DNA from: Escherichia coli
Lineage (GTDB): Bacteria > Pseudomonadota > Gammaproteobacteria > Enterobacterales > Enterobacteriaceae
Length of the DNA stretch: 64,000 nt
Assembly (NCBI RefSeq): GCF_003018255.1
Contig: NZ_CP027440.1
Reading direction: 5' to 3' (one strand)
Position 1 is the stretch's first letter. Every line of letters starts with the position of its first letter. The notes below the pieces were generated by a model. It made no database searches, had not been told where the DNA came from, and worked only from the letters and a program-made list of their open reading frames with translations. This document shows, piece by piece, positions 3,122-8,924 of the stretch. The position numbers were made by a program, and so were the translations under genes.

Positions 3122-6134
<3,013 letters not shown>

Positions 6135-6971
6135 ATGACCGTATTACATAGTGTGGATTTTTTTCCGTCTGGTAACGCGTCCGTGGCGATAGAACCCCGG
6201 CTCCCGCAGGCGGATTTTCCTGAACATCATCATGATTTTCATGAAATTGTGATTGTCGAACATGGCACGGGTATTCATGTGTTTAATGGGCAGCCCTATA
6301 CCATCACCGGTGGCACGGTCTGTTTCGTACGCGATCATGATCGGCATCTGTATGAACATACCGATAATCTGTGTCTGACCAATGTGCTGTATCGCTCGCC
6401 GGATCGATTTCAGTTTCTCGCCGGGCTGAATCAGTTGCTGCCACAAGAGCAGGATGGGCAGTATCCGTCTCACTGGCGCGTTAACCACAGCGTGTTGCAG
6501 CAGGTGCGACAGCTGGTTGCACAGATGGAACAGCAGGAAGAGGAAAATGATTTACCCTCGACCGCCAGTCGCGAGATCTTATTTATGCAATTACTGCTCT
6601 TGCTGCGTAAAAGCAGTTTGCAGGAGAACCTGGAAAACAGCGCGTCACGTCTCAACTTGCTTCTGGCCTGGCTGGAGGACCATTTTGCCGATGAGGTGAA
6701 TTGGGATGCCGTGGCGGATCTATTTTCTCTTTCGCTGCGTACGCTACATCGGCAGCTTAAGCAGCAAACGGGACTGACGCCTCAGCGTTACCTGAACCGC
6801 CTGCGACTGATGAAAGCCCGACATCTGCTACGCCACAGCGAGGCCAGCGTTACTGACATCGCCTATCGCTGCGGATTCAGCGACAGTAACCACTTTTCGA
6901 CGCTTTTTCGCCGAGAGTTTAACTGGTCACCGCGTGATATTCGCCAGGGACGGGATGGCTTTCTGCAATAA
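6135..6971 (+). CDS. rhaS: AraC-family transcriptional activator RhaS
   Basis: 278-aa translation [38 protein letters not shown]. Confidence 0.95.
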
Positions 6972-7044
6972 CGCGAATCTACTCAACGTATTTGTACGCC
7001 ATATTGCGAATAATCAACTTCGTTCTCTGGCCGAGGTAGCCACG

Positions 7045-7893
7045 GTGGCGCATCAGTTAAAACTTCTCAAAGATGATTTTTTTGCCAGCGACCAGCAGGC
7101 AGTCGCTGTGGCTGACCGTTATCCGCAAGATGTCTTTGCTGAACATACACATGATTTTTGTGAGCTGGTAATTGTCTGGCGCGGTAATGGTCTGCATGTA
7201 CTCAACGATCGCCCTTATCGCATTACCCGTGGCGATCTCTTTTACATTCATGCTGACGATAAACACTCCTACGCTTCCGTTAACGATCTGGTTTTGCAGA
7301 ATATTATTTATTGCCCGGAGCGGCTGAAGCTGAATCTTGACTGGCAGGGGGCGATTCCGGGATTTAGTGCCAGCGCAGGGCAACCACACTGGCGCTTAGG
7401 TAGCGTGGGGATGGCGCAGGCGCGGCAGATTATCGGTCAGCTTGAGCATGAAAGTAGTCAGCATGTGCCGTTTGCTAACGAAATGGCAGAGTTGCTGTTC
7501 GGGCAGTTGGTGATGTTGCTGAATCGCCATCGTTACACCAGTGATTCGTTGCCGCCAACATCCAGCGAAACGTTGCTGGATAAGCTGATTACCCGGCTGG
7601 CGGCCAGCCTGAAAAGTCCCTTTGCGCTGGATAAATTTTGTGATGAGGCATCGTGCAGTGAGCGCGTTTTGCGTCAGCAATTTCGCCAGCAGACTGGAAT
7701 GACCATCAATCAATATCTGCGGCAGGTCAGAGTGTGTCATGCGCAATATCTTCTCCAGCATAGCCGCCTGTTAATCAGTGATATTTCAACCGAATGTGGC
7801 TTTGAAGATAGTAACTATTTTTCGGTAGTGTTTACCCGGGAAACCGGGATGACGCCCAGCCAGTGGCGTCATCTCAATTCGCAGAAAGATTAA
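7045..7893 (+). CDS. rhaR: AraC-family transcriptional activator RhaR
   Basis: In-frame GTG at 7045 gives (M)[17 protein letters not shown] and 282 aa; the ORF-track ORF from 6934 would overlap the rhaS 3' end. Confidence 0.88.
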
Positions 7894-8924
7894 TTCGCCA
7901 TGCCCATGCCGACGATGTTGGCGGCGACAATAATCACCACACAACCGAGGCTCAACACCGTTACCGGACGGCGACCTGCATTGTTCCACTCTTTCAGCAC
8001 CAACCCGACGATACCGCCGCACAATACATAGAAGCTCATATGCAGCATCCAACTGATGTAGTCATACTGCGCCGGAATACGCGCGTGGCCCCAGGCATAG
8101 AAAAAGAATTGCAGATACCACATCAACCCGCCCAGTGCTGAGAGTAACACATTGTGAATGATCAGCGGTTTTGCCAGCGAGAAGTCGGCTTTTAGCGACA
8201 AATCCTTCACTTTTGCCAGACGAATGAAGCAGAAACCGAGGTTAATGATCGCGCCGCCGCCCATGATGACAACATAGCTTGGCAGAGCGACATACAGTGG
8301 ATCGACGCCCAGTGCAGCAGCGGCTTCATGCATCGGTTTTGCGGCGTTCATCGCAAAGGACATCCCGGCAGAGAAAATGCCGCACATCACCGCCAGCACC
8401 AGCCCTTTTTTCAGGTTGAACTCTTCGGCTTTAATGCCCATCTTGCGCTCTTTCAACTGCCCGGCGCGAGTTACAATCCCTACGCCAATCAGCGCCACCA
8501 GAACGCCGAGCAACGTCATGCGTCCGCCTTCGGTATTAATCAGCACATCGAAATTGCCGTTGATAATTGGCGTCATCAGCGTACCGACAATCAACGTAAT
8601 GCCAATGGCGATGCCAATTCCCATCGACATGCCGAGATAACGCATGGTCAGGCCGTAGTTGATATTACCGATCCCCCACATAGCGCCGAACAGAAAAACA
8701 GGCAGCAGCGTAGAGAGACTAAACGAGCTGTAATACGCCCAGAAATTCGGTAGTAACAGGGCGCTGATGGCCCACGGCAGGATAATCCACGAAACAATCC
8801 CACCGACTGACCACATGGTTTCCCATGACCATTTTTTTACTTTTTTGAACGGAGCGTAAAAACAGGCTGCACTGGCCGCGCCGATCAAATGCCAAAATAT
8901 CCCCATCGTAATCGCGTTACTCAT
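7890..8924 (-). CDS. rhaT: L-rhamnose:H+ symporter
   Basis: 344-aa polytopic membrane protein [26 protein letters not shown]; 4-bp overlap with rhaR stop on the opposite strand. Confidence 0.95.

What the first reader, a model, noticed from the sequence alone, without database searches (positions are those of the whole stretch)
6934..7047. rhaR start-codon ambiguity
The longest in-frame ORF starts at 6934 and would overlap the last 38 bp of rhaS. A GTG at 7045 gives the 282-aa protein. The choice affects whether rhaS and rhaR are translationally coupled.
Basis: partly seen in the sequence, partly recalled or inferred. Interest (0 to 1): 0.15.

Follow-up and report, generated by a model that had tools for sequence, protein, structure and literature searches.

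The report
rhaR start codon: GTG at 7045
The E. coli rhamnose regulator gene rhaR has three possible start codons, but comparison across related bacteria shows that the GTG at 7045 (282-aa protein) is the conserved start, which is what current reference annotation already uses, so the finding is ordinary.

Summary
The window holds the E. coli rhaB / rhaS-rhaR / rhaT locus. The rhaR frame is open from GTG 6934 (319 aa, 38-nt overlap with rhaS), and GTG 7045 gives 282 aa.

The evidence favours GTG 7045:
- It has the best Shine-Dalgarno (GAGGT, 7033-7037).
- In 31 orthologous rhaS-rhaR junctions outside E. coli and its nearest relative, the aligned codon is GTG (TTG in the four Atlantibacter-type loci), or an ATG one codon downstream in Budvicia and Limnobaculum.
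- 29 of those 31 have an in-frame stop 6-78 nt upstream. The other two have no ATG/GTG/TTG start between rhaS and the aligned codon.
- Spacer length varies from 71 to 158 nt and is often not a multiple of three, with REP-like insertions.
- NCBIfam RhaR models, PDB 5U93/5U9E, the paralog RhaS and RefSeq (including K-12) all begin there.

No N-terminal protein or ribosome-profiling data were found, so a minor long isoform in Escherichia is not excluded. Overlap-type coupling with rhaS is therefore unlikely.

In passing: the first 43 nt of the spacer are conserved above neutral expectation, in a layout resembling a class II CRP-type promoter. This is untested.

The parts
6135..6971 (+). rhaS coding sequence (278 aa), stop TAA at 6969-6971
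   Evidence: ORF list. RefSeq annotation of the 100% identical strain 104 and of Nissle 1917 and K-12 MG1655.
6934..6936 (+). GTG, first start-type codon of the longest rhaR-frame ORF (319 aa). Lies inside rhaS. Judged not to be used.
   Evidence: Weak anti-SD pairing, -2.4 kcal/mol. The frame is closed downstream of this position in 29 of 31 loci outside E. coli and Escherichia sp. MOD1. Only one contig in the protein collection carries a 319-aa annotation.
6955..6957 (+). ATG giving the 312-aa form. Formed by the rhaS codons GAT-GGC and overlaps rhaS by 17 nt. Judged to be an annotation artefact of choosing the first ATG.
   Evidence: Anti-SD pairing -4.8 kcal/mol. An in-frame ATG at this position is present only in E. 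coli and Escherichia sp. MOD1. In 'E. coli' E69 a 1-nt deletion plus a TGA separates it from rhaR. The 312-aa form is common in databases.
6972..7044 (+). 73-nt rhaS-rhaR spacer, non-coding
   Evidence: Orthologous spacers are 71-158 nt, often not a multiple of 3 apart, with REP-like insertions and in-frame stops.
6972..6987 (+). Conserved dyad CGCGA-N6-TCAAC (TCACC in most genera) directly after the rhaS stop. CRP-site-like, function not shown.
   Evidence: The half-site columns have pairwise identity of 0.8-0.9 or more, against 0.3-0.6 in the N6 and 0.45 at four-fold synonymous sites. See alignment A1.
7009..7014 (+). Conserved -10-like hexamer AATAAT, 29.5 nt from the dyad centre. Putative only.
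   Evidence: The spacing is 29.5 nt in 27 of 31 loci and 30.5 nt in 4. All length variation (28-114 nt) lies downstream of it.
7033..7037 (+). Shine-Dalgarno GAGGT, 7-8 nt before the GTG
   Evidence: Best anti-SD pairing of all candidates, -7.2 kcal/mol. GAGG is the only conserved element in the last 30 nt of the spacer across genera.
7045..7047 (+). GTG, the conserved rhaR start codon
   Evidence: The aligned codon is GTG, or TTG in the four Atlantibacter-type loci, in 31 of 34 fetched junctions. In Budvicia and Limnobaculum an ATG lies one codon downstream. Position 1 of the 282-position NCBIfam RhaR models maps here. PDB 5U93 begins MAHQLKLL. RefSeq CDS starts here.
7045..7893 (+). rhaR coding sequence, 282 aa (AraC_binding cupin domain plus two HTH_AraC motifs)
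   Evidence: It is 36% identical to RhaS, with RhaS residue 8 aligned to residue 11 of the 282-aa form.
7890..8924 (-). rhaT, convergent with rhaR. The two stop codons share the palindrome TTAA at 7890-7893.
   Evidence: ORF list. RefSeq annotation.

Best explanation
rhaR is translated from the GTG at 7045-7047, giving the 282-aa AraC-family activator. Initiation is directed by its own Shine-Dalgarno sequence (GAGGT, 7033-7037). The 73 nt between the rhaS stop (6971) and this GTG are untranslated spacer. The open reading frame that continues upstream to ATG 6955 and GTG 6934 is a chance open frame confined to E. coli and its closest relative. It is an off-frame of the rhaS 3' end plus a spacer that happens to lack stops, and it does not encode part of RhaR.

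Consequently rhaS and rhaR do not overlap, and coupling by overlap or termination-reinitiation is not expected.

Shown here: the conservation pattern, the RBS strength, the domain and model boundaries, and current annotation practice.
Inferred: that E. coli ribosomes actually start only at 7045.
For: 1. RBS. Anti-SD duplex energy is -7.2 kcal/mol for 7045, against -4.8 for 6955 and -2.4 for 6934.
2. Cross-genus comparison of 34 rhaS-rhaR junctions from other species (loci, analysis). The codon aligned to 7045 is GTG in 27 and TTG in 4; an ATG lies one codon downstream in the 3 Budvicia and Limnobaculum loci. GAGG sits upstream. In 29 of the 31 junctions other than Escherichia sp. MOD1 and its two close relatives... 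more precisely, among the 31 loci outside E. coli and Escherichia sp. MOD1, 29 have an in-frame stop 6-78 nt upstream of that codon, including 'E. coli' E69 (TGA 12 nt upstream plus a 1-nt deletion). The two exceptions have no ATG/GTG/TTG start between rhaS and the aligned codon.
3. Spacer lengths are 71-158 nt, often differing by numbers that are not multiples of 3, with REP-like insertions. A coding region would not tolerate this.
4. In the last 30 nt before the start, only the SD is conserved (mean pairwise identity 0.37), so there is no protein-level constraint.
5. NCBIfam RhaR equivalog models NF010025 and NF010027 (282 positions) align positions 2-281/282 to residues 39-318/319 of the 319-aa translation. 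No NCBIfam or Pfam model covers residues 1-37.
6. Crystallised RhaR N-terminal domain constructs 5U93 and 5U9E start at MAHQLKLL and HQLKLL.
7. The paralog RhaS begins 3 residues inside the 282-aa form.
8. RefSeq annotates 7045 in all four genomes checked, including K-12 MG1655 (NP_418342.2, 282 aa). The version suffix .2 fits an earlier revision.
9. [quoted passage not shown]
Against: - No direct experimental evidence for the N-terminus could be retrieved. The RhaR purification paper (Tobin & Schleif 1990) and the Egan-lab papers are not in the held library. rhaR is absent from the start-site and N-terminomics supplements searched.
- Within E. coli the upstream frame is open, and ATG 6955 has a moderate SD-like GGGA. 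A minor long isoform therefore cannot be excluded by comparison alone.
- The 312-aa form is annotated on at least 1000 contigs. From my memory, it is also the numbering used in older genetic work.
- Structure constructs and curated models reflect curators' choices and are not independent measurements.
Confidence: 0.92

Rival explanations
1. The native E. coli RhaR is the 312-aa protein starting at ATG 6955. That ATG lies 14 nt before the rhaS stop, so ribosomes finishing rhaS re-initiate there (classical overlap coupling). The 282-aa annotation would then be a truncation.
For: The frame is open in E. coli and Escherichia sp. MOD1. ATG is the preferred start codon. There is an SD-like GGGA 4-8 nt upstream (-4.8 kcal/mol). 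The 312-aa form is widely annotated. From memory, it is the original 1987 assignment, described as 'partially overlapping' reading frames.
Against: The 30 extra residues are not conserved outside Escherichia. The frame is closed by stops in 29 of 31 other loci and disrupted by indels and REP-like insertions, including in the near relative E69. No family model or solved structure includes them. The downstream GTG with its stronger SD is conserved instead.
Confidence: 0.04
2. Both starts are used in Escherichia. The major 282-aa form comes from GTG 7045, and a minor N-terminally extended isoform (312 aa) is made by ribosomes terminating at the rhaS stop. This would be a lineage-specific proteoform.
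For: Nothing in the E. coli sequence forbids it: the frame is open and the ATG lies within re-initiation range of the rhaS stop. The junction is almost invariant among the E. coli strains compared.
Against: There is no evidence for it. The near-invariance within E. coli is expected anyway, because part of the region is rhaS coding sequence and part is the conserved spacer module. An extension ahead of the cupin domain has no counterpart in RhaS or in other RhaR orthologues.
Confidence: 0.06
3. The 319-aa protein from GTG 6934 (the longest ORF) is the real product.
For: Only that it is the longest ORF. One database entry uses it.
Against: There is essentially no SD (-2.4 kcal/mol). The site lies 38 nt inside rhaS. 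All the conservation arguments against the 312-aa form apply equally.
Confidence: 0.005

Closest known systems
E. coli K-12 rhaR (b3906, NP_418342.2; NCBIfam NF010025/NF010027 'HTH-type transcriptional activator RhaR')
   Same: Same gene, with the same neighbours (rhaB divergent, rhaS upstream, rhaT convergent). The 282-aa product starts at the homologous GTG. The K-12 junction differs from the window at one base in the 140 nt compared.
   Different: Nothing of substance. The window is 100% identical over 601 nt to chicken strain 104 rather than to K-12. The window protein differs from the K-12-derived PDB sequence at 3 residues of the N-terminal domain.
Start-codon over-extension artefacts (longest-ORF or first-ATG rule) later corrected by comparative re-annotation
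   Same: An upstream in-frame ATG/GTG in an accidentally open frame. The downstream non-ATG start has a better SD and cross-species conservation. Several lengths coexist in databases.
   Different: Here the extension would also create a gene overlap, so the wrong choice changes the inferred operon mechanics (coupling) as well as the protein length.
Class II CRP-dependent promoters (CRP site centred at -41.5, e.g. galP1). Comparison applies to the side observation only.
   Same: A dyad of two conserved 5-mers separated by a variable 6-mer, followed by a T-rich flank. A TATAAT-like hexamer lies exactly 29.5 nt from the dyad centre. This spacing is invariant, while the distance to the start codon varies from 28 to 114 nt.
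   Different: The dyad matches TGTGA-N6-TCACA at only 6 of 10 positions in E. coli and 7 of 10 in most genera. The conserved C's in CGCGA are not what CRP prefers. No TSS, CRP binding or cAMP dependence has been shown.

Membership tests
RhaR (AraC/XylS-family L-rhamnose-responsive activator; NCBIfam equivalogs NF010025/NF010027) | Full-length match to the equivalog model above the curated cut-off | tested here: met
   573.1 bits against a cut-off of 525 (NF010025), and 564.2 against 384 (NF010027).
RhaR (AraC/XylS-family L-rhamnose-responsive activator; NCBIfam equivalogs NF010025/NF010027) | The N-terminus of the model coincides with the proposed start | tested here: met
   Model positions 2-281/282 align to residues 39-318/319 of the 319-aa translation, so position 1 corresponds to the codon at 7045. 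Residues 1-37 are unmatched.
RhaR (AraC/XylS-family L-rhamnose-responsive activator; NCBIfam equivalogs NF010025/NF010027) | N-terminal AraC-type cupin ligand-binding domain plus a C-terminal double HTH | tested here: met
   PF02311 at residues 59-189, PF12833 and PF00165 at 236-313. PDB 5U93/5U9E RhaR N-terminal domain match with E = 1e-115.
RhaR (AraC/XylS-family L-rhamnose-responsive activator; NCBIfam equivalogs NF010025/NF010027) | Gene context: rhaS immediately upstream, rhaB divergent, rhaT downstream | tested here: met
   The rhaS-rhaR tandem is present in 34 loci from other species.
Translationally coupled overlapping gene pair (stop/start overlap or termination-reinitiation) | The downstream start codon overlaps the upstream stop codon or lies within a few nucleotides of it | tested here: not met
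   The conserved start at 7045 lies 73 nt after the rhaS stop, and 71-158 nt after it in other genera. Only the unsupported starts at 6934 and 6955 would overlap.
Translationally coupled overlapping gene pair (stop/start overlap or termination-reinitiation) | The downstream gene lacks an independent ribosome-binding site, or its site is masked by structure that upstream translation opens | tested here: inconclusive
   An independent, conserved SD is present. In E. coli a predicted hairpin (z = -3.17) pairs the rhaR SD and GTG with the rhaS 3' coding end (P = 0.66), but the pairing partner is not conserved across genera (0-0.77).
Class II CRP-dependent promoter (side hypothesis for spacer 6972-7014) | 22-bp CRP site resembling TGTGA-N6-TCACA | tested here: inconclusive
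   6 of 10 core positions match in E. coli and 7 of 10 in most genera. The half-sites are conserved and the N6 is variable. The pattern is not enriched in the window. In about 12 genomes the best match in the genome's own rha regulatory region is the cGTGA-N6-TCACA site, but this is not significant in any single genome.
Class II CRP-dependent promoter (side hypothesis for spacer 6972-7014) | Site centred at -41.5, i.e. 29.5 nt before the first base of a -10 hexamer | tested here: met
   29.5 nt in 27 of 31 loci and 30.5 nt in 4. The hexamer is AATAAT, AATACT or GATAAT. The TSS itself is unknown.
Class II CRP-dependent promoter (side hypothesis for spacer 6972-7014) | A mapped transcription start, and dependence on CRP-cAMP | not testable with these tools
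   No TSS data covering this position could be read. No paper on an rhaR promoter was found.

The most novel reading that the evidence does not exclude
The conserved 43-nt module at the start of the rhaS-rhaR spacer (CGCGA-N6-TCAmCGTTTT ... AATAAT, window 6972-7014) is an internal, activator-dependent promoter of class II CRP type. It would fire at about 7020-7022 and produce an rhaR-only mRNA with a leader of about 24 nt containing just the SD and GTG 7045.

This would supply the basal RhaR needed to ignite the RhaR-dependent rhaSR positive-feedback loop. It would also make rhaR expression partly independent of rhaS, and it would by itself exclude the upstream start codons.
Probability: 0.3. 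Interest if true: 0.4.

Novelty: already known. Interest (0 to 1): 0.1.

Why it matters
For the finding itself, it matters little. It confirms that the current 282-aa annotation of a textbook regulator is right, and that the 312- and 319-aa entries still circulating in databases are over-extensions. In my recollection, older literature also uses the 312-aa numbering.

The practical value is for anyone mapping mutations, designing RhaR constructs or rhaSR expression cassettes, or inferring operon mechanics. rhaS and rhaR are separated by an untranslated spacer and do not overlap.

The spacer turns out to carry a conserved, promoter-like module. If that module is functional, it would add an unrecognised input to a widely used inducible system.

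Tried and rejected
1. Conserved RNA structure or attenuator in the spacer. RNAalifold found no pairs in the spacer (consensus energy -3.84 kcal/mol, no compensatory changes). Per-genus MFE folds were inconsistent. The terminator scan found nothing between rhaS and rhaR. Rejected.
2. Similarity of the spacer block to the RhaR half-site at psr or the RhaS half-site rhaI2 at rhaBAD, which I noticed by eye. The E. coli 'ACGTTTTTTACG' at psr is not conserved across genera. The best matches of the 23-nt non-coding block in each genome's own rhaB-rhaS region are at chance level (P 0.04-0.97). Rejected.
3. Local opening energies around each candidate start. All were about 22-23 kcal/mol, so they did not discriminate.
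4. Sigma-70 consensus promoter scan. Nothing was found in the spacer. This is expected if any promoter there is activator-dependent and lacks a -35 element.
5. Direct experimental evidence. The Egan-lab papers and Tobin & Schleif are not held. The INRI-seq supplements list only two weak out-of-frame sites near the rhaS start and nothing for rhaR. TRAINSPOTTER, the Kim 2012 TSS tables and Conway 2014 gave no hits or had no files held. The Cappable-seq GTF is stored truncated and would not reach this coordinate. CRP-SELEX and 'rhaR promoter' text searches found nothing relevant.
6. Genome-wide recurrence of the dyad pattern in the window. There were 5 matches at 3 or fewer mismatches against 2.6 expected, so it is not a repeated element.

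Full report
**What is there.** The window carries the E. coli L-rhamnose regulatory locus. rhaB is on the minus strand (4378-5847). rhaS (6135-6971) and rhaR (ending at 7893) are on the plus strand. rhaT is convergent on the minus strand (7890-8924). A 601-nt probe across the junction is 100% identical to E. coli strain 104 and is present in 5,417 of 5,426 complete E. coli genomes.

**Check of the observation.**
- The rhaR frame is open upstream to a TGA at 6811.
- Its first start-type codon is GTG 6934 (319 aa), which overlaps the last 38 nt of rhaS.
- GTG 7045 gives 282 aa.
This is the practically important rival. In the public protein collection the 282-aa and 312-aa versions of K-12 RhaR each occur on at least 1000 contigs. 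The 319-aa version occurs on one contig, and 288-aa versions also exist.

So the ambiguity is real as an annotation phenomenon.

**Which start is used: intrinsic signals.** GTG 7045 is preceded by GAGGT (7033-7037) at 7-8 nt. Its anti-Shine-Dalgarno duplex energy is -7.2 kcal/mol, the best of all in-frame candidates. The values for ATG 6955 and GTG 6934 are -4.8 and -2.4 kcal/mol. Local opening energies did not discriminate between the candidates.

**Which start is used: comparative evidence.** One scan of species-representative genomes returned 39 loci. Of these, 34 contain a tandem rhaS-rhaR pair, from Escherichia, Citrobacter, Kluyvera, Leclercia, Silvania, Buttiauxella, Atlantibacter, Cedecea, Budvicia, Limnobaculum and others. 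At the position aligned to 7045:
- The codon is GTG in 27 loci.
- It is TTG in the 4 Atlantibacter-type loci.
- In the 3 Budvicia and Limnobaculum loci an ATG lies one codon downstream.
- A GAGG-type SD precedes it.

Upstream, the rhaR frame is closed by an in-frame stop 6-78 nt before that codon in 29 of the 31 loci outside E. coli and Escherichia sp. MOD1. The two exceptions have no ATG/GTG/TTG start between rhaS and the aligned codon. Even the genome labelled 'E. coli E69' (RhaR 93% identical) has a 1-nt deletion in the spacer and a TGA 12 nt before the GTG.

Spacer length ranges from 71 to 158 nt, often differing by numbers that are not multiples of three. Several Citrobacter, Buttiauxella and Atlantibacter spacers carry REP-like palindromic insertions. 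In the last 30 nt before the start only the SD is conserved, and mean pairwise identity there is 0.37, below the 0.45 seen at four-fold synonymous sites. None of this is compatible with a conserved coding extension.

**Which start is used: protein-level evidence.**
- The 282-position NCBIfam RhaR equivalog models align positions 2-281/282 to residues 39-318/319 of the 319-aa translation. Nothing in NCBIfam or Pfam covers residues 1-37.
- The crystallised RhaR N-terminal domain (PDB 5U93, 5U9E) begins MAHQLKLL / HQLKLL, which is the 7045 start.
- The paralog RhaS (36% identity) aligns from its residue 8 to residue 11 of the 282-aa form. The two proteins therefore have near-coincident N-termini only if rhaR starts at 7045.

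**Which start is used: annotation.** RefSeq annotates the 7045-equivalent start in all four genomes inspected, including K-12 MG1655 (b3906, NP_418342.2, 282 aa). [quoted passage not shown] These annotation-based items are not independent experiments.

**What is missing.** I found no accessible N-terminal sequencing, N-terminomics or initiation-profiling result for RhaR. From memory, and not verified here:
- The original 1987 sequence paper described 'partially overlapping' rhaS and rhaR frames, which corresponds to ATG 6955.
- Older genetic work numbers RhaR residues on the 312-aa scale.
- UniProt lists the longer forms as erroneous initiations.

A minor long isoform in Escherichia therefore cannot be formally excluded. 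I give it about 6%.

**Consequence for coupling.** With the start at 7045 there is no overlap. The 73-nt gap and the independent, conserved SD argue for independent initiation.

There is one caveat. The E. coli RNA 6911-7072 is predicted to form a long irregular hairpin (-52.5 kcal/mol; z = -3.17; 1 of 200 shuffles as stable). In it the rhaR SD and GTG pair with the 3' end of the rhaS coding sequence with mean probability 0.66. Translation of rhaS could in principle unmask the rhaR site. In other genera the ribosome-binding region is also mostly paired, but the partner is inconsistent (0-0.77), so this is at best lineage-specific, and it is untested.

**Noticed in passing: a conserved module in the spacer.** The first 43-45 nt after the rhaS stop are conserved across genera in which the rhaR frame is closed, so the constraint is on the nucleotides. 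Using 16 genus-level representatives, mean pairwise identity is 0.66 against 0.45 at 60 four-fold sites. Fourteen of 45 columns reach 0.8 or more, against 3% of four-fold sites (resampling P < 1e-4).

The pattern is CGCGA (conserved), N6 (variable), TCA[C/A]CGTTTT (conserved), about 13 variable nt, then AATA[A/C]T (conserved).

The distance from the dyad centre to the first base of the hexamer is 29.5 nt in 27 of 31 loci and 30.5 nt in 4. All insertions and length variation (28-114 nt) fall downstream of the hexamer. This is the geometry of a class II (-41.5) CRP-type promoter. It predicts a start near 7020-7022 and an rhaR-only mRNA that would contain only the 7045 start.

Arguments against:
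- The dyad matches the CRP core at only 6-7 of 10 positions.
- Its invariant C's are unexplained.
- The pattern is not enriched in the window.
- No TSS or binding data were found.

RNA-level explanations (a conserved hairpin or a terminator) were tested and not supported. A resemblance to RhaS and RhaR half-sites that I saw by eye did not survive a shuffle test. [quoted passage not shown]

**Verdict.** The favoured reading (GTG 7045, 282 aa) is strongly supported and is already the accepted annotation, so this is known and ordinary and I score interest at 0.1. The only element that might be new is the conserved promoter-like module in the spacer. I rate it about 0.3 likely to be a functional internal promoter, and of moderate interest if it is.

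Noticed in passing
window 6972-7014 (and the homologous 43-45 nt after the rhaS stop in L004-L036): A non-coding block, CGCGA-N6-TCAmCGTTTT...AATAAT, is conserved well above four-fold synonymous sites (0.66 vs 0.45 mean pairwise identity). The dyad-to-hexamer spacing is fixed at 29.5 nt, and all insertions lie downstream. The layout resembles a class II CRP-type promoter for an rhaR-only transcript. No experimental support was found.
   Followed up: partly
window 6911-7072: A long irregular RNA hairpin is predicted (-52.5 kcal/mol, z = -3.17). It pairs the rhaR SD and GTG with the rhaS 3' coding end, which includes the two upstream candidate starts. The pairing partner is not conserved across genera. 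It could give structure-mediated coupling in Escherichia.
   Followed up: partly
L006, L011, L035 (Citrobacter amalonaticus); L018, L021-L023 (Buttiauxella); L024-L026, L031 (Atlantibacter-type), between the -10-like hexamer and the rhaR SD: The rhaS-rhaR spacer is expanded to 128-158 nt by GC-rich palindromic, REP-like insertions (e.g. GCCGGATG...CATCCGGC). They are independent in different genera and always lie in the same sub-segment of the spacer.
   Followed up: no
window 7890-7893: rhaR (+) and rhaT (-) are convergent, and their stop codons overlap in the palindrome TTAA. This leaves no intergenic space for a terminator between them. RefSeq annotation shows the same overlap.
   Followed up: no
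window 7027-7029 (CTG): 288-aa RhaR entries exist in Shigella dysenteriae and some E. coli records. That length corresponds to a start at this codon position. I did not check whether those strains carry a mutation creating a canonical start there.
   Followed up: no
L002 (E. coli BHUCD01), locus 937-1772: rhaS is annotated as a frameshifted pseudogene in this clinical strain, while rhaR is intact.
   Followed up: no
L031 ('Citrobacter freundii M-21') and L005 ('E. coli E69'): The record names look inconsistent with the sequences. The rhaSR junction of L031 is of the Atlantibacter type (TTG start, same spacer). E69 RhaR is only 93% identical to E. coli RhaR. Both are probably mislabelled or divergent lineages.
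   Followed up: no
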